Shown here piece after piece: positions 14,499 through 64,000 of a stretch of DNA of 64,000 nt (positions are counted from its first letter, which is position 1; each line of letters starts with the position of its first letter). The notes beneath the pieces are model-generated. The model made no database searches. It saw only the letters and a program-made list of their open reading frames with translations, and was not told the origin of the DNA. Both the position numbers and the translations under genes were made by a program. Source of the stretch: Thermodesulfobacteriota bacterium (GTDB lineage: Bacteria > Desulfobacterota > QYQD01); assembly GCA_040755415.1 (NCBI GenBank), contig JBFMAZ010000022.1, positions 64,650-128,649 of the forward strand, given 5' to 3'.

Positions 14499-14839
14499 TT
14501 CAACCATCCAATAACAAAGGAACGGGCTTGTCTGCGAAAGAGCAGCTTAAATCCGAAATTGTCCGCTGGGCCGCCGTCATGAAGGTGAACCCCGTGCAGA
14601 TTCGAGTCCAAAGGATGACTAAAAAGTGGGCGTCATGCTCAGCCAAGGGAAGGGTCTGTTTCAGCGCCGACCTTCTTCATGAGCCGAGAACTTTTCAGGA
14701 ATATGTCATCGTCCACGAACTCCTCCACCTCCAGGTTCCCAATCACGGCAAACTCTTCAAGAGCCTGCTGAACGCCTACTTGCCGGGCTGGGAAACTATA
14801 TTGGCGGAACGAAACGGGTGTGCGACAAGGAGCTTATGA
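14495..14839 (+). CDS. YgjP-like/M48-family zinc metallopeptidase (DUF45), short form
   Basis: 114 aa. It contains KKWASCSAKGRVCF and the HExxH-type motif VIVHELLHLQVPNHG, matching the C-terminal half of YgjP/DUF45 proteins. These are commonly linked to hsdR. Its start overlaps the hsdR stop. Confidence 0.75.
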   Translation: MIQPSNNKGTGLSAKEQLKSEIVRWAAVMKVNPVQIRVQRMTKKWASCSAKGRVCFSADLLHEPRTFQEYVIVHELLHLQVPNHGKLFKSLLNAYLPGWETILAERNGCATRSL

Positions 14840-21206: not shown

Positions 21207-21210
21207 AGCC

Positions 21211-22224: not shown

Positions 22225-22233
22225 AAGGAGGTT

Positions 22234-23478: not shown

Positions 23479-23496
23479 GGAGAGAGTAAGGAGTTT

Positions 23497-42404: not shown

Positions 42405-42417
42405 TTTTCACCCGTTC

Positions 42418-43608: not shown

Positions 43609-43861
43609 AAATAATGTCTTATTTGTTTTGTCATGCCTGCGAAGGCAGGCATCCAGAACCAGCGATTTTACTGGATTCCCGCTGGCCCCGTACTTGATAC
43701 GGGGTTACCCCGTGGGTTCCTGCTTTCGCAGGAATGACACACGGGGCGGGAATGACAGAAAAAACTCTAATGCGGACATTGTTTATGCAGCTTTCAATAG
43801 TCCCTAAGAAGGGGAAAAATGAGCATATGCCCCCCGAATTCCCTTCACCAATAAGGAACGG

Positions 43862-44911: not shown

Positions 44912-45019
44912 ATGAATATTGTCCCTTTTTGCAATGTTTTTTTAATTCTCTGGTTCATATGAGATTTTTGATTCGATTAATGGAGTCATGTGTTTCGCTT
45001 CCCACTTTTCTCTTTATAA

Positions 45020-47278: not shown

Positions 47279-47360
47279 TCCCTTATCCACCTTAACCTCC
47301 CCTTCTGCAATTGATATCCGCTCGACCATGCGTTTTCCTTGTCCGTCAGCATAGGCTTTC

Positions 47361-48554: not shown

Positions 48555-49348
48555 CCTCTCCCCTCGTATTCTTCTTTCGCCACGATGGCCGCACCAAGAG
48601 CGCCCATAAGCTGCGGATCTATATCCATCTGCGCAAAACGAATACCGAGAGCGTCCTCCAGCGCCTTGCGAAGTCCCACGTTCTTGGCCACGCCACCTGC
48701 AAAAACCACCTCCGGTTGTATGCCCACGCGTGCAGCCATATTGCTTACGCGCCTGGCTATTGCGAGATGAAGGCCTGCGGTGATATTTTGCTTGGTCTCT
48801 CCCTGTGCGAGAAGCGAAATGACCTCGGACTCGGCAAAAACAGTGCAGGTGCTGTTTATCAGGCTTGGCCTTCCCGACTGGAGAAAAAACTCTCCGAGCT
48901 CATCCAATTCGAGTTCGAGCGCTCTGGCCATGACTTCTAAAAAGCGTCCGGTCCCGGCCGCACATTTATCGTTCATTACAAAATCATAGACACGGCCAGA
49001 CTCGTCCAGTCTAATTACCTTGCTGTCCTGCCCTCCGATGTCAATTACCGTTCTGGTTTCGGAATGTAGATGATAAGCCCCTTTTCCGTGACACGTAATC
49101 TCAGTGACAGTCCGGTGCGCAAACGGAAGGGCAATCCGGCCATATCCCGTGCCGACGATAAATGCTATATCTTCGGGCCGGCAAGCTGCCAGCAGGAGCG
49201 CCTGTTCAAACACTTTCTTTCCTGCCTGTTGCGGATCGGCGCCCGTGGCAATAGTGCTTTTCGCAACTATACGGCCGCGATCAACCAGCACTGCTTTGGC
49301 AGCAAGCGACCCCACATCTATGCCTGCGAAAATAGACAGATGATGCAT
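48539..49348 (-). CDS. Acyl-CoA dehydratase activase (CoA-substrate-specific enzyme activase, BadF/BadG/BcrA/BcrD ATPase)
   Basis: 269 aa. The N-terminus is GIDVGSLAAKAVLVD (phosphate-1). The ASKHA fold is present. The two Cys that bridge the 4Fe-4S cluster are conserved (…NDKCAAGTGRF…). Confidence 0.85.
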   Translation of the reverse strand: MHHLSIFAGIDVGSLAAKAVLVDRGRIVAKSTIATGADPQQAGKKVFEQALLLAACRPEDIAFIVGTGYGRIALPFAHRTVTEITCHGKGAYHLHSETRTVIDIGGQDSKVIRLDESGRVYDFVMNDKCAAGTGRFLEVMARALELELDELGEFFLQSGRPSLINSTCTVFAESEVISLLAQGETKQNITAGLHLAIARRVSNMAARVGIQPEVVFAGGVAKNVGLRKALEDALGIRFAQMDIDPQLMGALGAAIVAKEEYEGRGWSWI

Positions 49349-50914: not shown

Positions 50915-51946
50915 ATGAAACAGAGCAATGTTTCCCCGTCGATTTCAGAATGGCGGGAACTGTACGAACAAGCAGATCGGTTCAGGGACCTGAAACCCTG
51001 GACCTGGATGTCAGATGCCGATCTTTTTGGTGTGCAGAATCCTGAGGATATGGAAATCGGGTACTGTTGCGTACTGGGTGAACTGGGAGAGGTGCTGGCA
51101 CTGGTGGTTTATCAAGGCTCCGAAGGTCTGGCCGGCTATTTAAAAATGCAATCAGGTGAATTCGATTATGAGGATCCCTCGGCCATACATCTGCAAAAAT
51201 GCCTAATGGCGTCATTCGAGGACAGAAAACACCTGACCAAAGAGGACCTGCAAATAGTAAAGGCGCTCGACCTCAAGTACAGGGGGCACCAAGCCTGGCC
51301 GCAATTCAGGAGCTATCTGCCCGGCTATCTTCCCTGGGTTTTGACCAAAGGTGAGGTAAGCTTTCTAAAGGTGGCACTGGATCAGGCCATCGAGGTATGC
51401 ATCCGGTTTCGGGAGGACCCCGGTTTTCTTGATCCGCCGGAAGAAGGCGAAGTACTGGTAAGAACCCCCGTCCCTCGAGGCAGCAAGATAGAATGGCAAA
51501 ACATTTGGATAAGGCCTCCGGCTGCAAAGCCGCGTGTCTTGCCAACCATTTCAGTCGATGAAATCCGCGTTCAAAGGATACGCAAAAACAAAGTCCTCGG
51601 CAAAGGCACCTGGGAAATTGATTTCTTCTATTTTCCGGGGTCGGTTCGGGAAGGAGAACGACCATTTTCCCCGGTAGTGTTTGCGGTTGTTGATAAGACC
51701 ACCGGGCTGATTTTGCATAACTGGATGAATCCGCCATCGGAATTGTTTGCGGACTTCCAGACGAATATTCTGGATGTCTTGAGCCGAAGCAGAACTTTGC
51801 CGAGACAGGTACTGGTGGCAAAGAGTGAAATGGGCCAGATGTTACAGCCGATTATCGCGGGACTGGGCATTGAGTTGAAGATGACTCCGCATTTGAGGGG
51901 AGTGGAACGGGTCGAAAAGGAGATGTATGCGCACTTCACCTCCTGA
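50915..51946 (+). CDS. Hypothetical protein, 343 aa, no recognised family
   Basis: It has a long ORF with coding-like composition and an AG-rich region before the ATG. The protein appears soluble with no obvious motifs. It is bounded by the R element and the third 19-mer copy. Confidence 0.5.
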   Translation: MKQSNVSPSISEWRELYEQADRFRDLKPWTWMSDADLFGVQNPEDMEIGYCCVLGELGEVLALVVYQGSEGLAGYLKMQSGEFDYEDPSAIHLQKCLMASFEDRKHLTKEDLQIVKALDLKYRGHQAWPQFRSYLPGYLPWVLTKGEVSFLKVALDQAIEVCIRFREDPGFLDPPEEGEVLVRTPVPRGSKIEWQNIWIRPPAAKPRVLPTISVDEIRVQRIRKNKVLGKGTWEIDFFYFPGSVREGERPFSPVVFAVVDKTTGLILHNWMNPPSELFADFQTNILDVLSRSRTLPRQVLVAKSEMGQMLQPIIAGLGIELKMTPHLRGVERVEKEMYAHFTS

Positions 51947-52053: not shown

Positions 52054-52635
52054 ATGACTATGGGATACCTTTTAGGACTTCAGGAATATCTGAATCAGAC
52101 GTATGAGACTTCGGTCTTCGACCGGATAGTGCGTTCTAAGGAACTGTGGATTTTTCATATCCATGGCAGCCGCACAGCCAAAGCCACAGTTTTGGAGAAT
52201 TTAAGATATGACATGAAACTCGATCTGGAAGGGCAGATAGAGGATCTCCCAAAGACCCAGGTCAAGTTTCTTTACCCGGCCCACTTCTGCAAGTCTGTCG
52301 GACCTCTCATAAAAATAGACAAAAAGGTACGGGACCTTGGACTGGGGCCGATTATCTCACGGCGAAAACGTTATTTTATCAAGAATAAGTCTTTGTTTCC
52401 TTTAATGAAGGAAAAACAGGTCGTCTACTTTACCTTATTGGAAGGCGAGATCATAAGAGGCATCATTATTGATTTCAGCAGGTACGACGTCACCGTGAGT
52501 CTGAAAGGAGGCATACCAGTGACAGTGTTGCGCCATGCCGTGTACGACCTACGAAACAAAAAGGGACGGTGCTTCCTAAAGTCCGTTCAAGAAGAACAGA
52601 TGGACTGGCAAAAAAGCGAGCTTTTCGTCCCGTGA
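52054..52635 (+). CDS. Hypothetical protein with a C-terminal Hfq-like Sm domain
   Basis: 193 aa. The C-terminus is KQVVYFTLLEGEIIRGIIIDFSRYDVTVSLKGGIPVTVLRHAVYDL. This parallels the Hfq Sm1 motif ([25 protein letters not shown]) and Sm2 motif (YKHAI). The N-terminal 130 aa are of unknown function. Confidence 0.5.
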   Translation: MTMGYLLGLQEYLNQTYETSVFDRIVRSKELWIFHIHGSRTAKATVLENLRYDMKLDLEGQIEDLPKTQVKFLYPAHFCKSVGPLIKIDKKVRDLGLGPIISRRKRYFIKNKSLFPLMKEKQVVYFTLLEGEIIRGIIIDFSRYDVTVSLKGGIPVTVLRHAVYDLRNKKGRCFLKSVQEEQMDWQKSELFVP

Positions 52636-52652: not shown

Positions 52653-55600
52653 TCAGGCATAAACCGGCCTGAGCCGCACGGCGCAGACCTTATACTCGGG
52701 TATCTTGGAAACCGGGTCAACCCCGGGATTGGTAAGGAGGTTGGCGGCGGCCTCCCGGAAGTGGAAAGGCAGAAACACCGTACCCCGCTGGCACATCTCT
52801 GTAAGTGCCACCCGCACCGTTATGTTACCCCGCCTTGAGATAATGCGCACCGGAGAATGATCGTCAATATTCAGGGCAAAGGCGTCAATGGGGTTCATTT
52901 CTACCATAACCTCCGGGTACATCTTGTTTAAGCCCTCAGCGCGGCGGCTCATGGTGCCGCTATTGTAGTGATAGAGCACCCGTCCGGTAGAAAGCAAAAA
53001 TGGATAGTCATCGTCCGGCATCTCGCTGGCCGGGATCACCTCCAGGGCATGGAATAGACCTTTCCCGCGGGTAAAACCATTGCAATGCAAGACCGGCGTA
53101 CCGGGATGGTCCAACGCCGGGCAAGGCCATTGAATCCCTGTCTCTTCCAGGCGATCGTAATAAATGCCCCCATAGGTGGGCGTCAAGCTGGCTATTTCCT
53201 CCATGATCTCTTCCGGCGACTGATAGGACATCTCGTATCCCATCTTTGCCGACAGGTCACAGATAATTCTCCAATCCGGCCTGCTTTGCCCCGGAGGTGA
53301 AAGGGCCTGTCTGACCCTCTGTACCCGCCTCTCCGTATTGGTAAAAGTGCCCTCTTTCTCTGCGTAACTTGCCGCCGGCAAGACCACATCGGCCAGCCTG
53401 GCCGTCCGAGTAAGAAAGATATCCTGCACCACGAGGAATTCAAGATTCTCCAAGGCCGATCGGACATGATTAAGATCCGGGTCGCTTATCATGGGGTTCT
53501 CACCCATAATGTAAAGGCCCTTTATCTTCCCCTCGCCGGCCTGTTTTATCATCTCCGTAGCCGTAAGGCCGGGTTCCCCGGGCAGCCGGGCATCCCAGGC
53601 CTCCTCAAATTTCCGCCTGACGGCTGCATCGGCAATACTTTGATATCCGGGGAGCACGTTAGGCAAGGCCCCCATATCACAAGCGCCCTGGACGTTATTC
53701 TGCCCGCGTAGGGGATTCACCCCGCCCCCTTCGATCCCTACATTACCGCACAGCATGGCCAGGTTGGCAATAGCCTTTACATTGTCCGTGCCGCTCCGGT
53801 GCTGGGTGATACCCATACAATAGACGATGGCCGCCCGCCCCGCCTGTGCATAGAGACGGGCTGCTTTTCTGAGGTCCTCCGCCGGTATCCCGGTGATCAT
53901 CTGTACCAGCTCAGGGGTGTATTTTTCCACTGTTTGGGCAAAGGCCTCGAAGTTTTCTGTCCGCTCCCGAACATAATCCTTATCCCATAGCCCCTCTTTA
54001 ACAATCACGTGGGCCAATCCATTTAACCAGGCTATATCCGTGCCCGGCCGGGGCCGAAGATAGATATCTGCATACTGCGTCATCTTGATTACCCGGGGGT
54101 CGGCCACGATCAGCTTCTTCCGCAGCCGGGTGACCGCGCTTATGATATGCAGACTGATAACCGGGTGGTTTTCTGTAGTGTTGCTGCCTGTAAGCAGGAT
54201 AACGTCGGCCTTTTCCAAGTCCTGGATGGAATTGGTCATGGCCCCGCTGCCAAATGCGGCAGCCAGACCGGCTACCGTGGAGGAGTGTCAGAGCCGGGCG
54301 CAGTGATCTATATTATTTGTCCCAAGGACGGCCCGGGCCAGCTTTTGCATCAGATAATTTTCTTCATTGGTACATTTAGCCGAGCAGAGTACACCCAGGC
54401 CCTCCGCTCCATACGTCTCTTTGAGTTCCTTAAGTCTATCGGCAATAAGCTCCAGTGCCTCATCCCAAGTGCAGGCCTGAAGCTCGCCATCCTTGCGTAT
54501 CATGGGCCTAGTAAGCCGGTCCGGGTGTTTAATAAAATCATGCCCGAAGCGCCCTTTTACGCAGAGGTGTCCTTGATTGGGGATAAAACCTGGATCAGAA
54601 GTTACTTCTACCAGCTTCTCTCCCCGAATATTGAGAATCAGGTTACAACCAGTACCGCAATAAGGGCAAACGGTTTTAACCTGCCTCAGTTCACCGGCCA
54701 GGGATTGCTCGGTTTCCTTCTTGACCAGGGCCCCGGTCGGACAATTATCGGCACACAGGCCGCAGAACACGCAGTTGTCATTAATGGTCAGCGAAATCGC
54801 CCGCAGTTGGCCGACAGTTTCCAGTTCGCCTTCTTCCAGGTTGATAGCCTCATATTCACAGACATTCTTGCAACGCCGGCAGAGTACACATTTATTCAGG
54901 TCAATGGTTATAAAAGGATGACGGCGATCCACCTTGTAGTTGAGGCGGGTGCCAATCCCGTAATGAGAAAGATCAACATTATATTGAGGGGCCTCACGCC
55001 GAATAATGCACTTGTCCACGGCATGACACCCGCACGCGAGGCACCGCTCCGCCTCTTTCACCGCCATCTCTTCAACATAACCCGTTTCTAACTCGCCGAA
55101 GTCGCCGGCCAGGGTCTTGGGGTGGCGTATCGGCATTCTCTGCCTGGGACGTGGAGGTACTTCTTCGAAGTTCCGCAGATCGACGTCTTCAAAAAACTCG
55201 CCTTTAGTGATATTAAACGGGGTACGCGGCAACTCTATTTCCCGTTCGGTTAGATACATATGGATAGCATCGGCCGCCTTTCGCCCTTGTGCTATGGCCT
55301 CGACAACGGTGCGCGGTCCGCTGACCGCATCGCCTCCGGCAAATATCCCCTCTAAATTGGTGACAAGAGTACGGGGGGCCGCCTCGATAGTATTCCAGCG
55401 GGTAAGCCCTAGCCCTTCGGTCAGACCCTCGGCATGACATTTTCCGATCTCTACCGACTGGCCGATAGCTGCAATAACACTATCTACCTGTATCACACTT
55501 TCCGATCCAGGGACAGGCACGGGACGCCTCCGGCCGCTCTGATCCGGTTCCCCCAGCTTCATCCTCTGCACTTCGAGATTAAGGAAACCGTCGCCCGGTG

Positions 55601-56768
55601 TAATCCTGGTTGGTGCCGCCATCAGGAAAAATTTAACCCCTTCGTCTTCAGCCTCTTTGATCTCGCGGTGGCTGGCCGGCATCTCCATCCGTGACCGGCG
55701 GTAAACTATAGTCACCTCAGTCGCCCCGAGCCTGAGAGAGGTACGGGCGGCATCAATGGCGGTATTGCCCCCACCGATTACGGCCACCCTCGGCCCTACA
55801 TGAACCTCGTCACCTTCGGCAAACTTGCGGAGAAAATCAATGCCAGAAAAGACTCCGGGGAGATCTTCGCCTTCGATGCCCATGGGACGGCTCTTCCACG
55901 CCCCTATACCGATGAATATGGACTCGAACCCTTCCTGTTTCAGGCTCTCCAGAGAAAAATCCCTACCCCATTTCCGGCCGCACCTCACCTCAACGCCCAG
56001 GTCAAGGATAAATTGTATCTCGGCATCCAATATTTTCTTAGGCAAGCGGTACTCCGGGATGCCATAACGAAGCATTCCGCCCAATGCAGGCATGGCCTCG
56101 AATATGGTTAGCCGGTGCCCCTTACGGGCCAGATAGTATGCAGCGCTGAGTCCGGCCGGCCCACCTCCGATTACGGCTATCCGGTGATCGGTAGAGGGTT
56201 GCTGAGGTACAGGAATGGACTCCTTGTGTGCAAGTCCATAGTCGGCTACAAACCTCTTTAGATGATTTATCGCCACACTGCCATCTACGAGGTTGCGGCG
56301 GCAACGCGATTCACAAAATCGGGGGCAGACCCGCCCTACCGAAAGGGGCAAGGGATTTTTCTCCTTAATGAGCTCTAAGGCCTCAAGGTATCTCCCAGCC
56401 GCAATATGGGCAATATACCCCTGGATATCTATATTGGCGGGGCAGGCCAGAGAACATGGCGCTGTGCAGTCGCCATAATGTTCAGAAAACAGGAGTTCCA
56501 GGATGACCCGGCGGGCGGTCCTCACCTTTTCGGCGTTGGTGGCTACCACCATGCCTTCAGAGACCGGCGTAGCACAGGAAGCGACGAGTCTGTCTTTACC
56601 TTCTACCTCCACGACACACAGACGGCAGGAGGCCGGGGGTTTTTTGAATTGGGGTAAGTAGCAAAGGGTAGGGATGTGGATGGCAGCCCTCCGGGCTGCC
56701 TCCAGGATGGTGGTTCCTTTCTCGACGGTTACTTTTCGGCCATCAATGGTTAAGGTTACTTCAGCCAT
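52653..56768 (-). CDS. fdhA: Selenocysteine-containing formate dehydrogenase catalytic subunit, fused as 2Fe-2S + GltD-like FAD/NAD(P) + 2x[4Fe-4S] + molybdopterin domain (about 1355 aa, TGA = Sec at 54288-54290)
   Basis: The two ORF-track pieces (54288..56768 and 52653..54239) are in the same frame and are separated only by TGA. The junction reads [30 protein letters not shown]. This matches the FdhF Sec motif NVDCCARV-U-HGPSVAALH. The N-terminal part has 2Fe-2S Cys, a GltD-like domain ([19 protein letters not shown] ... [12 protein letters not shown]), ferredoxin-type CxxCxxCxxxCP motifs twice, and the MopB N-terminal CPYCGTGC. Confidence 0.85.
54240..54290 (-). promoter_or_regulatory. In-frame UGA (Sec) codon plus downstream SECIS-like hairpin
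   Basis: The mRNA reads UGA cac ucc ucc acg gua gcc ggu cug GCUGCC gcauuu GGCAGC ggg. There is a perfect 6-bp stem with a 6-nt loop starting about 24 nt after UGA, the usual spacing for bacterial SECIS. Confidence 0.6.
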
Positions 56769-56810: not shown

Positions 56811-57692
56811 TTACACCGTCAGCCAGGAGTGAGAATAGAGCGTCTTTCCCATGAGAACCCGCGCCGTCTTATAGTACTCAAGTTCTTTTGGGCTAAGATC
56901 CTTGGCGTCAGGCTCGTTACCGTCCATCATGCCATGTACAAGCTTAACGACTTCAGTCATTCCACCTTTCGCAATGGTCAATAACTCCTCATCATAACCG
57001 TCTACTATGGCCGAATAAATCCCATACTTCATAAGCATGATAAGATAACAACGGTTGATATAAGGCCTCAGATCGTGCGGCGTCCCGTTAGAGATATTGG
57101 AAAGGCCGACAATGGATTTGGCGCCCGGGGCGATTTCCAGAAGCATGGACATAAATTCCAGCCCGGCCAGCACCTGGTTGATGTCCATGCTTATTGGAGT
57201 GGCTATGGGATCGATCCATACCTTTTCTGTAGGGATACCGGCTTCATTGGCCTTATAGACAAGGTCCACGCAGTGGGCGGCCCGCTCATTGGCGTCTCGC
57301 GGCATACCTTCCTGACTCCAGAGAAGGCCGATCATATCGGCATTATACTTAACCGCCATCGGCAAAAGGGCCTCCAGCCGTTCCGGCTGCAGGGAAATTG
57401 AATTTATAAGGGATTTACCTGGATTGGCCTTGAGACCGGCCTCAATAGCGACTGGATTGCTGGTATCCAGGGAGAGGGGCAGGTCCGTTACCGCACGTAC
57501 GGTCTTAACCAGCCAATCCATGGTCTCATCTCCACCCTTACGGGCCGGACCGATGTTGAGATCAAGATAATCCGCCCCGGCTTTAGCAAGCTCCCGGGTC
57601 ATATCCTGGATCGGCTTGGCCTGACGCTCCTTTATAGCCGCACCAATGGTCTTGGACATAATATTGATGTTTTCCGCCACACAAACAACCAT
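56811..57692 (-). CDS. acsE: 5-methyltetrahydrofolate:corrinoid/iron-sulfur protein methyltransferase (pterin-binding, AcsE/MeTr)
   Basis: Pterin-binding (DHPS-like) barrel. The N-terminus is MVVCVAENINIMSKTIGAAIKER. The start ATG at 57692 follows the RBS GGAGG by 7 nt; the ORF is open further to 57734. It is in synteny with acsC, acsB and acsD. Confidence 0.85.
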   Translation of the reverse strand: MVVCVAENINIMSKTIGAAIKERQAKPIQDMTRELAKAGADYLDLNIGPARKGGDETMDWLVKTVRAVTDLPLSLDTSNPVAIEAGLKANPGKSLINSISLQPERLEALLPMAVKYNADMIGLLWSQEGMPRDANERAAHCVDLVYKANEAGIPTEKVWIDPIATPISMDINQVLAGLEFMSMLLEIAPGAKSIVGLSNISNGTPHDLRPYINRCYLIMLMKYGIYSAIVDGYDEELLTIAKGGMTEVVKLVHGMMDGNEPDAKDLSPKELEYYKTARVLMGKTLYSHSWLTV

Positions 57693-57889
57693 AAAAAACC
57701 TCCGATAAAATTGAGATATTGGAGCTTCTTGCAAAAATCGTCACACCGGTGAAAACCGGTGTCCAGAGGTATCTCAAGCTGCTTAAAATTACTGGATTCC
57801 GGCTTTTGCCGGAATGACAAGAACGCCATTTACAAGACTTTTGCAAGAGCCTTATTGGATACCTTTTAACCGAAATTCCCGCCCCAGAC

Positions 57890-58115
57890 AAGCTGAAACA
57901 AATTCGAAATCCGAAGCACGAAATCCGAAACAATATCGAATCACCAAAATGAGAAATTCAAAACGAATTAGCTCTGCCGCAATTTGGGACATTATTGAAT
58001 TTGAACATTCGGATTTGTTTTGAGTTTCGATATTCGAATTTCGGATTTAAGTCACCGCACTCTGCAACTGGAACCCTGGAAGTCGGACCATTTCAAAGCG
58101 CTAAAGTGATACAAC
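57890..58115. repeat. Composite modular intergenic repeat, copy 5, inside the acs operon (arms plus flank)
   Basis: cgaaatccgaagcacgaaatccgaaacaatatcgaatcaccaaaat ... gaatttgaacattcggatttgttttgagtttcgatattcgaatttcggattt are inverted arms. caaagcgctaaagtgatac resembles caaacagctaaattgatac of copy 1. Confidence 0.8.
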
Positions 58116-58125
58116 AAATTTAATA

Positions 58126-59472
58126 TCATGCACTCCACTGCTTAAGATACGCCGGGAGGTGAGCCGCCTCCCGGGGGCCAACCAATATCTGCCAATCCGG
58201 CAGTTCCTCTTCCAGTTCACCACTCATACCCGCGAGGTACCCAGGGATAACCAGCTTACGGTGTTTTACCCGATCGGCTATGCCACACTTTTTGACAAAC
58301 ATGGCTACGGTATCGGCAGCAAATTTACCCGCAGCCCAGGCCGTAAGGACGGACAGACCCTCGGTATCCTTAATAAGCAGCCAGGAAGGAATACGGCTCG
58401 ACTCTACCTCGCCAGAAACGATAAAGTAGGTCAAAGAGAAATTGGATGTGATCAAAACCGGCGAATCTTCCCTGGGGCCTCCAATCTCATAGATCTTTTC
58501 CTCGACGGCCATAGGACGCTGGGGGTCGGTATAGATATTCAAGCTGTCTAGAAGAAGCGGAAAGACGTTATGGCCCTCCATCTCCGAGAGTACAATAATT
58601 CCTGCATATTTGGCAATAAGCATCGAGGCAATCAGGGCTTCCTTCATCTTGCTATCCGTCAATTGGCCAGGGAAGGTAATGGTAGGGAATCCCACTTGTT
58701 TAACCTTCTTGACTAAGGCCGAACGCCGGATGACTACCTGATCCTCCAGGGCCTTCTTAACGTTTGCTGGCTGGCTGTCTATCACCAGGTCCTTAAGCCC
58801 CATCCCCAGGAGCTTATCCGTAATAGCCATGACCTCATCCAGGCCGGAGCCTTTTACCGCCAGAGGGCAGGCCGACTCTTTGGCCAGATTACCCATAGCC
58901 TCTGCCGTATCTTTGGTAGCTGCATAGATAAGAGGTTTCTTATCCTTGCCAACCTTCAGGGCCTCGGCCATAACCTCCGGCTTATCGCCCATCAGGATGA
59001 TACCGGCATCCATTTGATCAATCACCCGCTTTACAAAAGTGGCAAACTTACCGGCGTCTCCGGATTCTTCTTTGAGCGCCAGCATCTGTGGACGCAGGAT
59101 CAACCCCACCCGCTCAAATTCCAGGTCTCTAAATTTAGAAAGTTTTTCATTTACTACGGAATCATCCATGGTGTCAGAAAGCATGAGAGCCAGACCTGGA
59201 GGATTCTCAAACCGCTTCTCATGCCTGAACATGACCGTCTCACCACCCAGCTTAACCGCACGGTCGCCCGTGCCAATAGTCACGGTACGGATAGGCGGCG
59301 CCGAGGCCTCGTCTATCTCTGCCCTCACATCTTCCGAGACATAAGGACAGGCAGCCAATTCGGCCTGACCAGTAGCCAGTTTCATAGCAAAAGCCAGACA
59401 GGTGGGAACCCCGCATTCGCCACAGTTTTTCTTGGGTAATTTCTTAAATATCTCTATGCCACTTAATGCCAT
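58126..59472 (-). CDS. acsC: Corrinoid iron-sulfur protein large subunit (CODH/ACS gamma subunit)
   Basis: 448 aa. The N-terminal 4Fe-4S motif is CGECGVPTCLAFAMKLATGQAELAACP. The TIM-barrel corrinoid-binding domain is present. The RBS AAGGAG lies 8 nt before the ATG. Confidence 0.9.
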   Translation of the reverse strand: MALSGIEIFKKLPKKNCGECGVPTCLAFAMKLATGQAELAACPYVSEDVRAEIDEASAPPIRTVTIGTGDRAVKLGGETVMFRHEKRFENPPGLALMLSDTMDDSVVNEKLSKFRDLEFERVGLILRPQMLALKEESGDAGKFATFVKRVIDQMDAGIILMGDKPEVMAEALKVGKDKKPLIYAATKDTAEAMGNLAKESACPLAVKGSGLDEVMAITDKLLGMGLKDLVIDSQPANVKKALEDQVVIRRSALVKKVKQVGFPTITFPGQLTDSKMKEALIASMLIAKYAGIIVLSEMEGHNVFPLLLDSLNIYTDPQRPMAVEEKIYEIGGPREDSPVLITSNFSLTYFIVSGEVESSRIPSWLLIKDTEGLSVLTAWAAGKFAADTVAMFVKKCGIADRVKHRKLVIPGYLAGMSGELEEELPDWQILVGPREAAHLPAYLKQWSA

Positions 59473-59574
59473 TCTAAAATCTCCTTTCTATGCATCAGGC
59501 CACAGATAAACGCAGATTATCAGGATGTTAAATCTTTTTCTGCGTACATCGGCGAAAATCTGCGTCCTTTTAAT

Positions 59575-61779
59575 CTAAAGTATAGATTCCATGGTGAGCG
59601 CCGGATGCCCGACCTCTTCCAAGAAGGGAAGAATCTCTTCTTCCGTAGCCCCCTTTGTCTCATCAGCGATCATATCAATCAAGTTTGGGATACCCAGTTC
59701 TTCTCCCCGCTTTCTTAATTTATCTTCCAACTCCTTCTTCAGCATCTGCGGCATCCACACCACCCGCTTTAGGCCTCCCTCGGCCAGGATGAACTTACGG
59801 CTGGCAATAAAGTGTTTGCTCACCCCCAAAAAGCCCGGGGTAACCTGCCCGCCGCCCACCATACCGGCCATAGTGGTGAATTTCATACCACTCGGCGTCA
59901 TGCCCAGATAATCACGGTTGACGATCATCACCCCGTTACAAAGGGGTAAGATGGTGGCGATGCATTCAAAACAGCCGCAGGCCGTCATCGGATCGTGGAC
60001 GAGACTGTAAGCGCTGACCGTCTGCACCTTCTGTCTGGAGGCCTTGAAAACAAATTCATCCGTTCCCTTCCACTTACCAAGGACCGGATCTATACACTCT
60101 CTCTTGGGAATAGGTTGATTGGGGCCGGTGGGGTTGATCTCATACGACGCCTTGCCATCCAGCCAATTATAAGCGCCGCACATACCGGTTCGTTCCGGAG
60201 TAATCACGCAGACATGCTGGGGAGCAAAGGATTGACAAAGGGTACAGGAATAAAAAATCTCCTCTGACTCGTCGGTCATACCTTCTACCCTCTTATCCCG
60301 GGCACTATAAACCTTGCGGGCCATCTCCATTACTTCGTCAACCTTAGCTTCGTCAGTATATATTTTTACCTGGACTTTATCTACAATGGCGCCGAATTCC
60401 TGGTGATATTTGGCATGCATTATCTTTCCCAGGTCCTTCAAACGGAATCCCTTTTCCACAGCCGCCTTGCCTACACGAAGCCACATGATGTTACGCTGTC
60501 CAATATGCATGATCCCCTGGGCATAGTTAACCAGGTGGTGAATCTGTCTCTCCAGGATAGGCTCAAAGTCCTCCTGCATCTGGCGGCCGGCCACCTCAAT
60601 GAGCATGGCAAACGGGAGCCGTGAGCCCTCCTTTACCCCATCAAGATCCGGTCCGGTCATCTCAACGTAGCCGTCTTCCACCTCGTCCATGTCGCGGCTT
60701 ATCGTCAACTCGACGCCCTTGGTCTTTCCGCCGCCGCATTCCAGATAGAGATCATCCTTCCGAATCCGTTCCCCCTCAAAGGCCGGCCCATAGGCCACGG
60801 GGATGTCTATTTTGGAAATGGTTACCTTAAGACCCCTTACCTCTACCGCCCGCTGAACAATCTCGTCGTGAGGCACATTGCTCACCACGTGTTCGTAAGT
60901 ACAGATACCAGTGGGCAATATCTCGGGTATCGGGGTATCGGCTATGGTTGGGAAGCCCCAGTTGATGGCGCCTGCCGCATTGGCATACCATTCATCAGAG
61001 ACCGGACCCAAAGGCATGGCAAAAGCAAAGACACGATTCTTGTTGTAGATCAGATTACCGCGAAAATCTCCCGGCTTAACACCACCGAAAGACATGGCCA
61101 CGCGAGTAGCAAAACCCATGGCGAAAACCGTGGCCGTATAGTCCGTACCAAAAGAGACCAGACGGGTCGGCCAGCCGATCTGTACGCCAGCCTCGACTAA
61201 CTGCTCAGACATTCTCACCCCGTTATTGTCGGAACACATGAAGACATACAGGTTTTTTTCCTGGAGTTCCCGGGCAATATTGGCCGCAATCTCTTTGTTT
61301 GGCGGAGCCCCAAGTATAGCTGCAAAACCAGGCGCCGTCCCATCGACGAATTCCACACCCCTCTTGCGCAGAATGATGTCATCAGCCGCTCCGAGCCAGA
61401 TATTGTTGGCAAGCGGATCTTCCTGCTTGGTGTAGCAATCCGGTTCTTCTAAGTACCGAATAGCCTCGATGATTTCCTCGGCAAAAAATGTGGCCATGCC
61501 GGCCTCCAAGGTCGGAGCCAGATAAGGCAGCCACACTTTATCACTGACCAGCGGCGGAAGTAAAGAATGACATTTATCCAGCACCTGTTTCATGTCGCTC
61601 AGTTTCGACACTGGTATCCCTAGAATCCCATATATGATGGGAAGATAGTAGGCAGTGTTTGGAAACCCAACCTCTTGATCCGGCCCCCACTTCTCCAGAG
61701 CCTCCGCATATTTCTTTTCGGCCCTCTCTATGATCTTATGGGCCCCTCTAATAGCTGCTGAGCAGATAATCTTAGACAC
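59575..61779 (-). CDS. acsB: Acetyl-CoA synthase catalytic subunit (A-cluster, CODH/ACS beta subunit, AcsB/CdhC)
   Basis: 734 aa with a GTG start. The A-cluster motifs are CGCFEC (MTACGCFECIA) and CGAYNWLDG. The full three-domain length of a bacterial AcsB is present. Confidence 0.92.
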   Translation of the reverse strand: MSKIICSAAIRGAHKIIERAEKKYAEALEKWGPDQEVGFPNTAYYLPIIYGILGIPVSKLSDMKQVLDKCHSLLPPLVSDKVWLPYLAPTLEAGMATFFAEEIIEAIRYLEEPDCYTKQEDPLANNIWLGAADDIILRKRGVEFVDGTAPGFAAILGAPPNKEIAANIARELQEKNLYVFMCSDNNGVRMSEQLVEAGVQIGWPTRLVSFGTDYTATVFAMGFATRVAMSFGGVKPGDFRGNLIYNKNRVFAFAMPLGPVSDEWYANAAGAINWGFPTIADTPIPEILPTGICTYEHVVSNVPHDEIVQRAVEVRGLKVTISKIDIPVAYGPAFEGERIRKDDLYLECGGGKTKGVELTISRDMDEVEDGYVEMTGPDLDGVKEGSRLPFAMLIEVAGRQMQEDFEPILERQIHHLVNYAQGIMHIGQRNIMWLRVGKAAVEKGFRLKDLGKIMHAKYHQEFGAIVDKVQVKIYTDEAKVDEVMEMARKVYSARDKRVEGMTDESEEIFYSCTLCQSFAPQHVCVITPERTGMCGAYNWLDGKASYEINPTGPNQPIPKRECIDPVLGKWKGTDEFVFKASRQKVQTVSAYSLVHDPMTACGCFECIATILPLCNGVMIVNRDYLGMTPSGMKFTTMAGMVGGGQVTPGFLGVSKHFIASRKFILAEGGLKRVVWMPQMLKKELEDKLRKRGEELGIPNLIDMIADETKGATEEEILPFLEEVGHPALTMESIL

Positions 61780-61799
61780 CTTAATTCCCCCCGTATTGT

Positions 61800-62070
61800 A
61801 AGATCAAAAAAATCCTAATCCGGATCCGCCATAGGCGGACCGGAATTTCAAATGCCAAAATCCCAAGTTCAGATCAAATCCAAATGACTATAGCGGATGT
61901 CATTAGTCAATAGTCATTTGTCACTGGTAAAAGTGGTCCATCTTTCCAACTTAACCAATGACCAATGACTAATGACCAGTGACGAGTGACGTTTTTAATT
62001 TTTGGTACTTTGACATTCATTTGAACCTTGAGCTTTGAAACTTCGAACTTCACCAACCAGAGTCTTTGCC
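61800..62070. repeat. Compound repeat inside the acs operon: an aaatcc-type arm fragment, a family C element (61875-61995) and gaac/ttcg arms
   Basis: 61875-61995 reads ccaaatgactatagcggatgtcattagtcaatagtcatttgtcactggtaaaagtg...aaccaatgaccaatgactaatgaccagtgacgagtgacg. This is the reverse complement of 34135-34235. The flanks aatcctaatccggatccgccataggcggaccggaatttcaaatgcc and tttgaaccttgagctttgaaacttcgaacttcacc are arm-like. Confidence 0.8.
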
Positions 62071-62119
62071 TTGGGATTTAGTGCTTAGCATTTTTATGCC
62101 ACTGTCTCACTCCTGAGTG

Positions 62120-63067
62120 CTACGCTGCCAGCAAATCATTAAGCATATCCTTTATGAGTGCAATAGCCTCTGGATGCCTCATAATTAAGATATCTGCACC
62201 CGCCAGCAAGAGAAGCTGTGCCGTAACGGCTTCCATCAGTACACCCCGCCTTGCCGGGTCACCCAGTTTGGGCGCCTCATCCCGGCTCTGTTTGGCCTCC
62301 TTGGTCTTCCACACCTCTTTACCCAGGTTACAAACCATCGGGAACTGCAGCCTCTCATCTTCCTGGGTCAGGGCCGCCATCCGGATACGTTCCATGACCG
62401 AGTAGCCATATTCCAGTCCGTATCCAAGGGCACCAGTGGTCGGATCGATAAGGATGCGTCCGTCCGGCACACCCAGGTTGCCAAGTAGGATGTTGAGCTG
62501 CTTGGCCAGATTTATGTCTATAGGGGTCGAGGCAATAACCGTGTGTTCATATCCAATAGCTACCGCCCCGATCTGTTTGTAGTTGGCCTCGGTCACCGGG
62601 CCGAGCATCAAGTTCCGTCCTGCGCAATCCTCGGCTATCTTTCGTAAAACCTCCATGTCTTTCTCCGCATTATTGCACCCCCATACAATCAAGGGTACGT
62701 CTATCGATTCGGCCACTTTCCTGGTTAGCGCTGCGGCTGCATCCGCAGGACGATTTTCGCCGTTGGGGTCTGTACTGACCAACTGAAGGGCAATCATCTC
62801 CGCCCCGTAGGTATCCACGCATTTCCTGGCCCAGGCCACCGGATCTGCAGCCACATCGGCAAAAGGCTCCAGGGCCGTAGGGGCCCAGTCTTCGGGCGGG
62901 CTATCATAAACCTCCATAGCGATACGTGGTTTTAAAGGCATCTGACCTTCGAAGAGGTAAAAAGGATAAGCAGTCTCCCCGCCTACCGTGATCGCCTTAT
63001 CCCCCTTACCCAGAACAATCTCTTTTATTTTCCCTGAATAAGAAACCTTTGGTATCTCTAAAGCCAT
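62120..63067 (-). CDS. acsD: Corrinoid iron-sulfur protein small subunit (CODH/ACS delta subunit)
   Basis: The TIM-barrel CdhD/AcsD family pattern is present (MALEIPKVSYSGKIKEIVLGKG...). The start ATG at 63067 follows the RBS GGGAGGG by 5 nt. The ORF-track start at 63133 would run into the upstream repeat. Confidence 0.85.
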   Translation of the reverse strand: MALEIPKVSYSGKIKEIVLGKGDKAITVGGETAYPFYLFEGQMPLKPRIAMEVYDSPPEDWAPTALEPFADVAADPVAWARKCVDTYGAEMIALQLVSTDPNGENRPADAAAALTRKVAESIDVPLIVWGCNNAEKDMEVLRKIAEDCAGRNLMLGPVTEANYKQIGAVAIGYEHTVIASTPIDINLAKQLNILLGNLGVPDGRILIDPTTGALGYGLEYGYSVMERIRMAALTQEDERLQFPMVCNLGKEVWKTKEAKQSRDEAPKLGDPARRGVLMEAVTAQLLLLAGADILIMRHPEAIALIKDMLNDLLAA

Positions 63068-63074
63068 TTTTCCC

Positions 63075-63245
63075 TCCCTCAGAAAGAATTCCGAATATCG
63101 AATATCGAAATCCGAAACAAGTCTTAAATCCAAATGTCAAATGCCCAAAACGCAATTGTTGCAACCAAGTCTTCTTCTATCATGCATTCATCTGACTCTA
63201 GGAATTTGAATTTGTTTCGAAATTCGTGCTTTGGATTTCGAATTT
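63075..63245. repeat. Composite modular intergenic repeat, arms-only copy between acsD and metF
   Basis: gaattccgaatatcgaatatcgaaatccgaaacaagtc ... gaatttgaatttgtttcgaaattcgtgctttggatttcgaatttt are inverted arms of the aaatccgaa family. Confidence 0.8.
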
Positions 63246-63249
63246 TACT

Positions 63250-64000
63250 TTACAATCCTGCTTCATCCAGTACTTGTGGTACCCGTTTCTCCCAGCCGAT
63301 GGCCATGATATGTACACCGTGGCATAGGTCCTTCATCCCCTTTACCAATCGTGCCGCTATCTCAATACTGGTCTTGACTTTGTCCTTGGTCTCCGTCATC
63401 TCCTTGATCAGGTATTCGGGAACAAAGACCCCGGCCACATTTTTGTTCATAAAGCGGGCCATGCCCGCCGACTTAAGCAGGATCACGCCCCCCAGGATCT
63501 TTGTCTTATACCCCTCCACCCGTCTCATGAACTTCGCAAAGAGGTCCAGGTCATAAATGGCCTGGGTCTGAAAAAACCGGGCGCCGGCTTCCATCTTTTT
63601 TTCCATCTTTATAATCTGTAAGTCAAGTGCGGCTTCGGTATCCGCACCCGGGTTAACCACCGCACCAGGCAAAAAAGCCGTAGCCCCCTTAAGCTCGTTT
63701 CCAGCCATGTCCGCGCCACCGTTAAGTTTGCCGATCACCTCCAGCAGACTCACCGAGTCCAGATCAAACACCGGCTTGGCCTGGGGATGATCCCCAAGGG
63801 TCGGATGATCTCCGGTGAGCGCCAGGACGTTTCTGATCCCTAGTACCCAGGCGCTGAGGAGGTCGGCCTGGAGGGCCAATCGGTTCCGGTCCCTGCAAGT
63901 CACCTGCAGGACAGGATCGATCCCCATATCTGTCAATAAGTGGCAGACGGCCAGGGAACCCAAGCGCATAACAGAACTCTGCATATCGGTCACATTAATG
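63250..64000 (-). CDS. metF: Methylenetetrahydrofolate reductase (C-terminal part; the N-terminus lies beyond the window end)
   Basis: The MTHFR TIM-barrel motifs are present: ...LQVTCRDRNR..., ...VLALTGDHP... and ...FFQTQAIYDLD.... The ORF continues to the window edge. Confidence 0.85.
   Translation of the reverse strand, partial: INVTDMQSSVMRLGSLAVCHLLTDMGIDPVLQVTCRDRNRLALQADLLSAWVLGIRNVLALTGDHPTLGDHPQAKPVFDLDSVSLLEVIGKLNGGADMAGNELKGATAFLPGAVVNPGADTEAALDLQIIKMEKKMEAGARFFQTQAIYDLDLFAKFMRRVEGYKTKILGGVILLKSAGMARFMNKNVAGVFVPEYLIKEMTETKDKVKTSIEIAARLVKGMKDLCHGVHIMAIGWEKRVPQVLDEAGL

What the first reader, a model, noticed from the sequence alone, without database searches (positions are those of the whole stretch)
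52653..56768. One selenoprotein gene split by the ORF caller: a fused NAD(P)H-type formate dehydrogenase of about 1355 aa with in-frame UGA and SECIS
The two minus-strand ORFs are in the same frame and are separated only by TGA at 54288-54290. The junction reads [17 protein letters not shown], the canonical molybdopterin formate dehydrogenase selenocysteine motif. A 6-bp stem hairpin follows the UGA at SECIS spacing.

The N-terminal 826 aa add a NuoG-like 2Fe-2S domain, a glutamate-synthase-beta-like FAD/NAD(P) module and two ferredoxin-type motifs.

The whole electron path from NAD(P)H to formate/CO2 is therefore on one polypeptide. This is an unusual fusion. The gene is placed at the head of the acs/metF methyl-branch cluster, which fits a role as the CO2 reductase of the Wood-Ljungdahl pathway.
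Basis: partly seen in the sequence, partly recalled or inferred. Interest (0 to 1): 0.6.

Follow-up and report, generated by a model that had tools for sequence, protein, structure and literature searches.

The report
Selenocysteine formate dehydrogenase fused to NADPH module
The two ORFs are one 1371-residue selenocysteine formate dehydrogenase gene with a built-in NADPH-oxidising module, a well-populated and already recognisable kind of enzyme, so the finding is correct but fairly ordinary.

Summary
Minus-strand ORFs 54288-56768 and 52653-54287 share one frame and are separated only by TGA (54290-54288). The read-through product is 1371 aa, not about 1355.

- **Sec/Cys pairing:** all 104 uninterrupted homologues of 1300-1400 aa in which the motif was found have Cys aligned with this TGA.
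- **Conservation:** seven contigs from close relatives (77-93% identity) keep the TGA and about 545 in-frame codons. Selection downstream is as purifying as upstream.
- **SECIS:** an 8-bp hairpin with a GGUCU loop starts 10 nt after the UGA (54257-54277). It pairs in 88% of cells across 26 distinct TGA loci, with compensatory changes, against 49.5% in Cys-codon controls. It coincides with the apical stem of Rfam SECIS_3 (52.8 bits, below the gathering score of 63).

- **The fusion is not unusual.** More than 100 protein clusters from many phyla share it. The same domain order is solved in StnC/NfnA transhydrogenase subunits, where the FDH-like domain is inactive.
- **The gene is not at the head of the cluster.** It is the last gene of metF-acsD-acsB-acsC-acsE.
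- **The split is probably only an ORF-listing artefact.** Accession numbering suggests GenBank already holds one protein record for it.

No sel genes lie in the window, so the machinery is untested. Verdict: new member of a known kind.

The parts
52653..56768 (-). Complete fused formate dehydrogenase gene: 1371 codons plus the TGA stop at 52655-52653
   Evidence: Single frame with one internal TGA. tblastn of the whole protein gives one HSP over residues 1-1371 in relatives.
54288..54290 (-). In-frame UGA, codon 827, read as selenocysteine
   Evidence: Aligned with Cys in all 104 full-length homologues where the motif was found. Aligned with the non-standard residue X of the F420-dependent FDH 9t1s_L. 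TGA is kept in 28 related loci.
54257..54277 (-). SECIS apical hairpin: stem 54277-54270 pairs with 54264-54257, loop GGUCU at 54269-54265, starting 10 nt after the UGA
   Evidence: Folds at -14.9 kcal/mol. Across 26 TGA loci, 88% of cells pair, covariation score 0.445, 0/500 shuffles reach this. RNAalifold predicts the same stem. Cys-codon controls pair at 49.5%.
54235..54293 (-). Stretch matching Rfam RF01989 (SECIS_3) over the full model
   Evidence: 52.8 bits against a gathering score of 63; E 4.5e-12 in a local scan. The apical stem matches; the model's lower stem is poorly paired here.
56535..56765 (-). N-terminal NuoG-like [2Fe-2S] domain (aa 2-78)
   Evidence: Pfam Fer2_4, E 9.5e-22. 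C36, C48, C51 and C65 are invariant. Matches the N-termini of complex I 75-kDa subunits.
55284..56468 (-). GltD/NfnB-like module (aa 101-495): two [4Fe-4S] sites, FAD, and an NADPH site (GGGNTAID ... YRRS)
   Evidence: Pfam Fer4_20 and Pyr_redox_2. PDB NfnI large subunit 5jca_L E 7e-93; GltD 6s6s_G E 5e-71. Aligns with the NADPH-binding part of StnC.
54729..54911 (-). Two ferredoxin-type [4Fe-4S] motifs (aa 620-680)
   Evidence: Pfam Fer4_7/Fer4_9. C627, C630, C633, C637, C666, C669, C672 and C676 are invariant.
52680..54683 (-). FdhA catalytic part (aa 696-1363): Molybdop_Fe4S4, Molybdopterin and Molydop_binding domains
   Evidence: Pfam hits. NCBIfam TIGR01591 Fdh-alpha scores 882.7 bits against a cut-off of 666. 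PDB HDCR FdhF 7qv7_S E 1e-226; FdhH 1aa6_A E 8e-179.
56811..63993 (-). Upstream genes on the same strand: acsE (56811-57692), acsC (58126-59472), acsB (59575-61779), acsD (62120-63133), metF (63250-63993, cut by the window end)
   Evidence: NCBIfam hits. The same order occurs in relatives L001, L005, L006 and in the Cys-type L088.

Best explanation
This is one gene for a 1371-residue cytoplasmic formate dehydrogenase / CO2 reductase.

**Translation.** Codon 827 is UGA. SelB carrying Sec-tRNA(Sec) binds the GGUCU-loop hairpin that starts 10 nt downstream. The ribosome therefore inserts selenocysteine instead of terminating. The Sec, the following His828 and the conserved Arg in the LRGQNNVQG motif form the Mo/W-bis-pyranopterin active site.

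**Electron path.** The N-terminal ~690 residues form an NADPH-oxidising module: [2Fe-2S], a GltD/NfnB-like FAD and NADPH site, and several [4Fe-4S] clusters. This wires NADP(H) to the metal centre inside one chain. Moorella thermoacetica achieves the same with separate SfrB-like, SfrA-like and FdhF gene products.

**Role.** The gene is the last of the metF-acsD-acsB-acsC-acsE string. It therefore supplies or removes formate for the methyl branch of the Wood-Ljungdahl pathway.

**Shown here:** a single reading frame, the Sec/Cys column, the SECIS covariation, domain and ligand conservation, and synteny.

**Inferred:** actual Sec insertion, NADPH specificity, self-sufficiency without partner subunits, the metal (Mo or W), and the physiological direction.
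For: - **One frame, one internal TGA:**
- **Cys at the aligned position:** seen in all 104 uninterrupted homologues where the motif was found.
- **Conservation of the recoding site:** TGA plus about 545 in-frame codons are kept in L001-L007 at 77-93% identity.
- **Protein-level selection on both sides of the UGA:** against L001 there are 139 synonymous vs 63 non-synonymous differences upstream, and 96 vs 37 downstream. The 16 codons between the UGA and the caller's ATG are 100% conserved at protein level.
- **SECIS covariation:** 88% paired, 0/500 shuffles reach it, slid registers give 22-61%. Cys-codon controls give 49.5%, reached by 73/500 shuffles. RNAalifold finds the same stem, with 4 of 7 pairs showing compensatory changes.
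- **Codon constraint in the loop:** the Gly-Leu codons are GGUCU in most TGA loci (23 of the 29 listed), but vary freely in Cys loci.
- **Rfam:** SECIS_3 match, E 4.5e-12.
- **Family models:** TIGR01591 is passed at 882.7 against 666. The PRK12814 profile is covered 1-630 of 657 by residues 1-639.
- **Cluster ligands:** all Cys/His ligands are invariant in a 20-sequence alignment.
- **Synteny:** the acs linkage is shared by Sec-type and Cys-type relatives, with no NuoE/F-like neighbour.
- **Literature on separate-subunit equivalents:** Moorella's NADPH-dependent Fdh is encoded by sfrB2, sfrA2 and fdhF3 (PMC13040438). T. onnurineus Fdh3 needs its NfnL-like subunit for NADP+ reduction (PMC8965080).
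Against: - No selA, selB, selC or selD and no tRNA lie in the 64-kb window, so the machinery is unverified for this genome.
- The SECIS_3 match is below Rfam's gathering score (52.8 < 63), and the single-sequence fold z-scores are weak (-1.9 and -2.3).
- No member of this fused, catalytically intact family turned up as biochemically characterised in five literature searches.
- In StnC, the same N-terminal 2Fe-2S side passes electrons on to the bifurcating StnAB module (PMC10482914).
- In Dissulfuribacter the fused gene follows HdrA-like and MvhD-like genes.
- For the last two reasons, stand-alone NADPH coupling is not certain.
Confidence: 0.8

Rival explanations
1. The fused protein is not self-sufficient. 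It is the formate-oxidising/NADPH arm of a larger, possibly electron-bifurcating or confurcating complex. The partners (Hdr/MvhD-like or NuoE/F-like proteins, or ferredoxin) would be encoded elsewhere and dock at the N-terminal 2Fe-2S side.
For: - In StnC, electrons from the GltD-like FAD pass through the clusters of the N-terminal part, including the 2Fe-2S cluster, to the bifurcating StnAB module (PMC10482914).
- In Dissulfuribacter thermophilus the fused gene directly follows a 1022-aa HdrA-like gene and an MvhD/FlpD-like gene.
- In L088 an MvhD-like gene and metV-metF lie upstream in the same string.
- T. onnurineus Fdh3 also uses ferredoxin (PMC8965080).
Against: - No NuoE/F-like or Hdr gene is adjacent to the FDH gene in the window.
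- The genes downstream of it differ among relatives L001, L003, L004 and L088.
- The chain already holds both a donor site and an acceptor site.
Confidence: 0.25
2. The UGA is decoded as cysteine rather than selenocysteine, at least under some conditions. A tRNA-Sec-like tRNA-Cys with a UCA anticodon (selC*) would be delivered by a second SelB (selB*).
For: - Mukai et al. describe selC* tRNA-Cys (anticodon GCA or UCA) followed by selB* in Desulfobacterales and Syntrophobacterales, and show opal suppression with Cys (PMC5389517).
- A selC*(GCA)-selB* pair lies directly behind a fused FDH gene in Dissulfuribacter.
Against: - Nothing in the window shows that this genome has selC*, selB* or cysS*.
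- The SECIS matches the ordinary fdhF-type loop.
- Genomes with selC* also carry the complete normal Sec system, according to the same paper.
Confidence: 0.05
3. There are two separately translated subunits. The UGA is a true stop, and the downstream part starts at ATG 54239.
For: A mechanical ORF list shows two ORFs, and gene callers split the relatives in the same way.
Against: - The 16 codons between the UGA and the ATG encode the catalytic His828 and the conserved [14 protein letters not shown] segment, and are 100% conserved.
- Met844 is an internal conserved residue (SGAMTNS) in all homologues.
- The sequence before it is GGCAGCGGGGCC, with no clear Shine-Dalgarno site.
- Homologues with a Cys codon are continuous.
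Confidence: 0.02
4. It is a pseudogene inactivated by a nonsense mutation, or an assembly error.
For: None beyond the presence of a stop codon.
Against: - The same TGA is present in independent assemblies from JGI, Logan, ENA and NCBI.
- Purifying selection downstream equals that upstream.
- The stop sits exactly at the known Sec position.
Confidence: 0.01
5. It is an Stn/NfnABC-type transhydrogenase large subunit (StnC/NfnA) without formate dehydrogenase activity.
For: The best PDB matches over the first ~1000 residues are 9bov_A, 8oh5_C (StnC) and 9n5u_A (NfnA).
Against: - Those proteins lack the CARL-[C/U]-H motif and are reported as catalytically inactive for formate (PMC7483475, PMC10482914).
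- The window protein keeps the motif, the full Molybdopterin and Molydop_binding domains, and passes the Fdh-alpha equivalog cut-off.
- No NuoE/F-like genes lie in the window.
Confidence: 0.02

Closest known systems
Cys-type fused 'formate dehydrogenase subunit alpha' proteins of 1340-1400 aa (e.g. P0010 of GCA_014381545.1; Dissulfuribacter thermophilus P0051; Zhurongbacter thermophilus P0113)
   Same: Identical domain order, 47-60% identity over 99-100% of the length. P0010 sits at the same place after metV-metF-acsD-acsB-acsC-acsE.
   Different: They have a Cys codon (TGC/TGT) where the window has TGA, and no conserved hairpin there.
StnC / NfnA, the large subunit of the Sporomusa-type (Bfu-type) NfnABC transhydrogenase (PDB 8OH5 chain C; 9N5U chain A). 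PDB 9BOV chain A, deposited as 'Molybdopterin oxidoreductase', is the best hit with the same architecture; its source paper was not identified.
   Same: Same order: [2Fe-2S], then a GltD-like FAD/NADPH module inserted into a NuoG/FdhF-like protein. The HxxxCxxxCxxxCP and CxxCxC...C junction motifs are present. E values are 1e-223 to 1e-239 over query residues 1-1037 (PMC7483475, PMC10482914, PMC12018979).
   Different: In StnC/NfnA the FdhF-like domain has lost the Sec/Cys-His motif and is inactive (an 'evolutionary remnant'); 9bov_A lacks the motif in the same way. StnC/NfnA work with NuoE/F-like subunits. The window protein has an intact Sec active site, a complete C-terminal domain (about 200 aa longer) and no such neighbours.
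NADP-dependent tungsten-selenium formate dehydrogenase of Moorella thermoacetica (Yamamoto et al. 1983; genes sfrB2, sfrA2, fdhF3 according to PMC13040438)
   Same: Selenocysteine FDH coupled to NADPH through a GltD/SfrB-like subunit. It is the CO2 reductase of the Wood-Ljungdahl pathway.
   Different: Separate gene products in Moorella, one polypeptide here. The metal and the kinetics of the window enzyme are unknown. I did not compare the sequences directly.
Thermococcus onnurineus Fdh3 (PMC8965080)
   Same: FdhA plus an NfnL/GltD-like NAD(P)-binding subunit gives NADP+-preferring formate oxidation and NADPH-dependent CO2 reduction.
   Different: Four separate subunits, Cys instead of Sec, archaeal, and not linked to acs genes.
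Escherichia coli FdhH (fdhF) and its SECIS; Rfam SECIS_3 (RF01989)
   Same: U-H active-site dipeptide within CAR[LV]-U-H. The SECIS hairpin sits on the V-A-G-L codons with a GGUC(U) loop about 10-12 nt after the UGA. FdhH 1aa6_A gives E 8e-179; SECIS_3 gives E 4.5e-12. The fdhF SECIS details are from my own knowledge.
   Different: FdhH is a 715-aa protein with no NADPH module. The window's SECIS scores below the family's gathering cut-off because the model's lower stem is poorly paired.

Membership tests
Selenocysteine-containing Mo/W formate dehydrogenase alpha subunit (FdhA/FdhF type, NCBIfam TIGR01591) | Score above the curated equivalog cut-off | tested here: met
   882.7 bits against a cut-off of 666.25, residues 699-1365 on profile positions 1-671 of 672.
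Selenocysteine-containing Mo/W formate dehydrogenase alpha subunit (FdhA/FdhF type, NCBIfam TIGR01591) | In-frame UGA at the metal-ligand Sec/Cys column, followed by His, plus the conserved Arg motif and the N-terminal [4Fe-4S] Cys motif | tested here: met
   CARL-U-H aligns with CARL-C-H in all 104 homologues where the motif was found and with the non-standard residue X of 9t1s_L. H828, R1021-G-Q-N-N-V-Q-G and C701/C704/C708/C736 are invariant.
Selenocysteine-containing Mo/W formate dehydrogenase alpha subunit (FdhA/FdhF type, NCBIfam TIGR01591) | Bacterial SECIS hairpin immediately downstream of the UGA | tested here: met
   8-bp stem with a GGUCU loop, 10 nt after the UGA. Covariation across 26 TGA loci against Cys-codon controls.
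Selenocysteine-containing Mo/W formate dehydrogenase alpha subunit (FdhA/FdhF type, NCBIfam TIGR01591) | Genome encodes selA, selB, selC (tRNA-Sec) and selD | not testable with these tools
   None lie in the 64-kb window.
Selenocysteine-containing Mo/W formate dehydrogenase alpha subunit (FdhA/FdhF type, NCBIfam TIGR01591) | Selenium actually incorporated; formate dehydrogenase activity | not testable with these tools
   Needs 75Se labelling, mass spectrometry and enzyme assays.
Rfam RF01989 SECIS_3 | Covariance-model score at or above the gathering score (63 bits) | tested here: not met
   52.8 bits, E 4.5e-12, full model length. The apical stem matches and the lower stem is mispaired. Six Sec-type relatives also stay below the gathering score.
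Stn / Bfu-type NfnABC transhydrogenase large subunit (StnC/NfnA) | Domain order: 2Fe-2S, GltD-like insert, 4Fe-4S clusters, FdhF-like domain | tested here: met
   Query residues 1-1037 align with 8oh5_C residues 1-985, and 4-1034 with 9bov_A residues 4-997.
Stn / Bfu-type NfnABC transhydrogenase large subunit (StnC/NfnA) | FdhF-like domain degenerate, without the catalytic Sec/Cys-His | tested here: not met
   The window keeps CARL-U-H and the full C-terminal domains. 8oh5_C and 9bov_A have gaps or unrelated residues there.
Stn / Bfu-type NfnABC transhydrogenase large subunit (StnC/NfnA) | Encoded next to NuoE-like and NuoF-like subunit genes | tested here: not met
   No such genes among the annotated ORFs of the window, nor in relatives' loci.
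NADPH-dependent FDH of the Moorella type (GltD/SfrB-like subunit plus Sec-FdhA) | GltD/NfnB-like FAD module with an NADP(H)-type second nucleotide motif (GxGxxA ... YRR) | tested here: met
   GGGNTAID and VYRRSR are present; Y356 and R358 are nearly invariant. The motif interpretation comes from PMC7483475 and PMC8965080.
NADPH-dependent FDH of the Moorella type (GltD/SfrB-like subunit plus Sec-FdhA) | Separate alpha and beta subunits; tungsten; measured NADP+ specificity | tested here: inconclusive
   The modules are fused into one chain here, so the subunit criterion is not met as written. Metal and cofactor specificity cannot be read from the sequence.

The most novel reading that the evidence does not exclude
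The window protein and its relatives would be the catalytically live form of the scaffold that survives in StnC/NfnA only as an 'evolutionary remnant'. On this reading it is a single polypeptide that alone couples NADPH to CO2/formate, making it the most compact CO2 reductase of the Wood-Ljungdahl pathway.

Within this one family, the rough tree and the contexts suggest two further things. The active-site residue has switched between Sec and Cys more than once. The catalytic site has also been lost independently at least twice, and the scaffold then reused as an NADPH input module for other complexes.
Probability: 0.45. Interest if true: 0.45.

Novelty: new member of a known kind. Interest (0 to 1): 0.3.

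Why it matters
For annotation: naive ORF calling splits this gene and its relatives in two, and most metagenome gene callers did so. That hides a complete CO2-reducing enzyme and under-counts selenoproteins in Thermodesulfobacteriota.

For biochemistry: a one-chain NADPH-to-CO2 enzyme would be an attractive and simple catalyst for formate production or NADPH regeneration. It would also give a functional reference point for the Stn/NfnABC transhydrogenases, whose FDH-like domain is dead.

None of this overturns current understanding. Selenocysteine FDHs, their SECIS elements, GltD-coupled NADPH-dependent FDHs and this domain order are all already described.

Tried and rejected
1. **MFE hairpin as the SECIS.** The hairpin GCUGCC-GCAUUU-GGCAGC is broken in L005 and in most distant TGA loci (mean 7.4 of 11 pairs, and only 5-7 in many). 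The upstream GGUCU-loop hairpin covaries instead, so I rejected the MFE hairpin.
2. **Rfam at gathering threshold.** It found nothing in the window. Only a permissive local scan showed SECIS_3.
3. **Exact look-up of the full-length protein with U.** The tool does not accept U. Neither split ORF is on record. Accession numbering (…451 for ORF 50915-51946, …454 for AcsE) leaves …452 and …453 for the small ORF at 52054-52635 and the FDH gene. This suggests one deposited protein record, but it is an inference.
5. **Terminator after the gene.** None was found.
6. **Other in-frame TGA pairs in the window.** Only neighbouring genes with their own start codons turned up.
7. **Accessory genes next to the FDH gene.** ORF 52054-52635 has no family hit, and 50915-51946 is DUF7309/DUF6930.
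8. **Context of P0113.** Not on record.
9. **Degenerate fused homologues as Stn subunits by context.** Not supported, since they have no NuoE/F-like neighbours.
10. **Structure prediction.** Not run. The protein exceeds the 1200-aa limit, and sequence matches to solved structures are already decisive.

Full report
**Observation**

- The ORF list shows 54288..56768 (826 aa) and 52653..54239 (528 aa) on the minus strand.
- Translating 52653-56768 in one frame gives a single internal stop, TGA at 54290-54288. The junction reads [18 protein letters not shown].
- The frame is open from the TGA onward. The second ORF's ATG (54239) is just the internal Met844. The read-through product is therefore 826+1+544 = 1371 aa, not about 1355.
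- By my arithmetic, a 544-codon open frame after a stop has a chance of about 5e-12.

**Is the UGA a selenocysteine codon?**

Four independent lines say yes.

1. Among the 120 best database homologues, the roughly 110 uninterrupted proteins of 1300-1400 aa have the same architecture. In all 104 where the motif was found, Cys aligns with the TGA (...CAR[LV]-C-H...).
2. The closest relatives (72-92% identity) are all called as ~826-aa proteins. Their DNA (seven contigs from JGI, Logan and ENA) has TGA at the same codon, followed by about 545 in-frame codons.
3. Against L001, differences upstream of the UGA are 139 synonymous and 63 non-synonymous. Downstream they are 96 and 37. The 16 codons between the UGA and the caller's ATG are unchanged at protein level. 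So the downstream part is translated as protein.
4. The solved F420-dependent FDH 9t1s_L has its non-standard residue (X) in the same column.

**SECIS**

- Two overlapping hairpins follow the UGA.
- The MFE hairpin is found only in close relatives.
- The other is CGGUAGCC-GGUCU-GGCUGCCG (window 54277-54257) and starts 10 nt after the UGA.
- On 26 distinct TGA-bearing loci (fused and unfused FdhA), 88% of its cells pair. The covariation score is 0.445. No shuffle out of 500 reaches either value, and slid registers give 22-61%.
- Several stems are completely re-coded, for example GUGACU/AGUCAC in L008 and GUGGCA/UGCCGC in L016.
- RNAalifold predicts the same stem, with 4 of 7 pairs showing double changes.
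- The same columns in 26 Cys-codon homologues pair at 49.5%, indistinguishable from shuffles. Their Gly-Leu codons vary, whereas most TGA loci use GGUCU (23 of the 29 listed).
- A permissive Rfam scan matches SECIS_3 (RF01989) over its whole length at 54293-54235: 52.8 bits, E 4.5e-12. This is below the gathering score of 63 because the model's lower stem is poorly paired. The model's apical stem-loop is the hairpin above.
- The position and loop resemble the E. coli fdhF SECIS (my own knowledge).

**Architecture**

- Pfam finds Fer2_4 (2-78), Fer4_20 (101-181), Pyr_redox_2 (196-495), a 4Fe-4S dicluster (620-680), Molybdop_Fe4S4 (696-747), Molybdopterin (751-1174) and Molydop_binding (1257-1363).
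- NCBIfam describes it simply. Residues 1-639 cover the whole PRK12814 profile (a ~657-aa putative NADPH-dependent GltD-like oxidoreductase). Residues 699-1365 pass the Fdh-alpha equivalog cut-off.
- All cluster ligands are invariant in a 20-sequence alignment. [quoted passage not shown]
- Local tblastn shows that ordinary ~900-aa FdhA proteins match residues 1-100 and ~580-1366 contiguously. In L011, L018, L020 and L038 the GltD-like block is a separate gene immediately upstream.

**Is the fusion unusual?**

No.
- The same architecture is present in more than 100 protein clusters. Their source names include Deltaproteobacteria/Thermodesulfobacteriota, Thermodesulfovibrionales, Anaerolineae, Clostridiales, Fibrobacteria, Thermoleophilia and a Thermoplasmata archaeon. 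They are usually named 'formate dehydrogenase subunit alpha'.
- The best PDB matches over the first ~1000 residues are 9bov_A, 8oh5_C (StnC of the Sporomusa ovata StnABC transhydrogenase) and 9n5u_A (NfnA of Thermococcus sibiricus NfnABC).
- In 8oh5_C and 9bov_A the CARL-[C/U]-H motif is missing. The papers call the StnC FdhF-like domain catalytically inactive, an evolutionary remnant with no formate:viologen activity (PMC10482914, PMC7483475, PMC12018979).
- The window protein is thus the intact-active-site version of a known scaffold.
- Functionally it puts on one chain what Moorella encodes as sfrB2, sfrA2 and fdhF3 (PMC13040438). T. onnurineus Fdh3 achieves the same with a separate NfnL-like subunit (PMC8965080).

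**Context and source**

- On the minus strand the order is metF (cut by the window end) > acsD > acsB > acsC > acsE > FDH. The FDH gene is therefore the last gene of the string, not its head.
- The same order holds in Sec-type relatives and in the Cys-type homologue P0010. The downstream genes differ, and none is NuoE/F-like.
- The window comes from a GenBank MAG labelled Thermodesulfobacteriota bacterium, on a 159,574-bp contig. A TonB-dependent receptor gene fits a diderm organism.
- Accession numbering (…451 for ORF 50915-51946, …454 for AcsE) leaves two numbers for the small ORF at 52054-52635 and the FDH gene. Neither split ORF is on record. I infer that the deposit already carries one protein record for this gene.
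- The window holds no sel genes and no tRNA, and no other convincing in-frame TGA gene.

**Mechanism and limits**

- Most likely, SelB bound to the GGUCU hairpin delivers Sec-tRNA(Sec) to UGA827.
- NADPH then reduces the FAD of the GltD-like module. Electrons pass through the [4Fe-4S] chain to the Mo/W-bisPGD site, where Sec827, His828 and the conserved Arg act on CO2/formate. The reaction can also run in reverse.
- The direction cannot be read from the sequence. The same cluster serves acetyl-CoA oxidation in complete oxidisers and CO2 fixation in autotrophs.
- Self-sufficiency is inferred from the absence of conserved partner genes. The main rival is a role within a larger, possibly bifurcating complex. 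The N-terminal 2Fe-2S side passes electrons to StnAB in StnC, and in Dissulfuribacter the fused gene follows HdrA-like and MvhD-like genes.

**Family evolution (indicative only)**

This rests on an NJ tree without bootstrap support.
- The window's Sec clade is sister to the acs-linked Cys clade.
- L008 (Sec) pairs with another Cys-type protein.
- Forms that lost the catalytic dipeptide and the C-terminal domain arise in two places and sit in unrelated contexts.

**Verdict**

The claims of an unusual fusion and of a position at the head of the cluster are not. This is a new, Sec-type member of a known and widespread kind of enzyme, and is probably already annotated as such. Interest is modest.

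Noticed in passing
L090 12134-14232 (Dissulfuribacter thermophilus, GCA_001687335.1): A 90-nt tRNA lies directly after the Cys-type (TGC) fused FDH gene. Rfam scores it as tRNA-Sec (58.8 bits, gathering score 47), but its anticodon is GCA and its discriminator base is U. A SelB-like gene follows. This fits the selC* tRNA-Cys / selB* class of Mukai et al. (PMC5389517). Its position behind an FDH gene whose active-site codon is UGC hints at SelB*-assisted decoding of that codon.
   Followed up: partly
P0100, P0108, P0109, P0111; loci L091 6001-9771 and L092 5719-9618: These fused homologues are about 50% identical to the window protein. They have lost the Cys/Sec-His dipeptide and the Molydop_binding domain. 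P0109 sits among NuoH-, NuoK-, NuoL/M- and NuoB-like genes and HycI; P0108 sits behind a GCV_H-domain gene. The scaffold seems to be reused as an NADPH input module.
   Followed up: partly
L011, L018, L020, L038 (about 8001-12200 in each; 6085-10196 in L020): A split arrangement of the same enzyme: a GltD-like gene (query residues 101-579) lies immediately upstream of a 2Fe-2S-FdhA gene. It occurs with either TGA (L011, L018) or a Cys codon (L020, L038).
   Followed up: partly
window 57743-57762 (minus strand): A terminator-like hairpin, ACACCGGTTTTCACCGGTGT followed by a T-run, lies between acsC and acsE inside the otherwise tight gene string.
   Followed up: no
window 56811-57692 (minus strand): The AcsE-type methyltetrahydrofolate:corrinoid/Fe-S protein methyltransferase is named 'dihydropteroate synthase' in the GenBank record (MEW6326454.1), which is probably a misnaming.
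   Followed up: no
window 16206-17207 and 17405-19879 (plus strand): SbcC appears split into an N-terminal ORF ending in TAA and a separate C-terminal ORF about 200 nt later, downstream of sbcD (14965-16194).
   Followed up: no
window 21127-26012 (plus strand): Three tandem glucose-1-phosphate adenylyltransferase (glgC/glgD-like) paralogues follow a DHH-family protein gene. Two of the junctions happen to be in frame across a TGA, but each gene has its own start codon.
   Followed up: partly
window 7495-14839 (plus strand): A type I restriction-modification system (hsdM, hsdS, hsdR) has a RhuM/Fic-domain gene inserted between hsdS and hsdR.
   Followed up: no
window 40534-49348 (minus strand): A same-strand string of genes: an ABC importer (BtuC/FhuB-like permease, ATPase, binding protein), a radical SAM/SPASM protein, a TonB-dependent receptor, and a double-cubane-cluster reductase with its activase.
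   Followed up: no
window 4820-5554 (plus strand) and 50915-51946 (plus strand): A stand-alone MvhD/FlpD-domain protein lies about 48 kb from the FDH gene. A DUF7309/DUF6930 protein gene lies downstream of the FDH gene on the opposite strand, facing it. Both are of unknown role.
   Followed up: no
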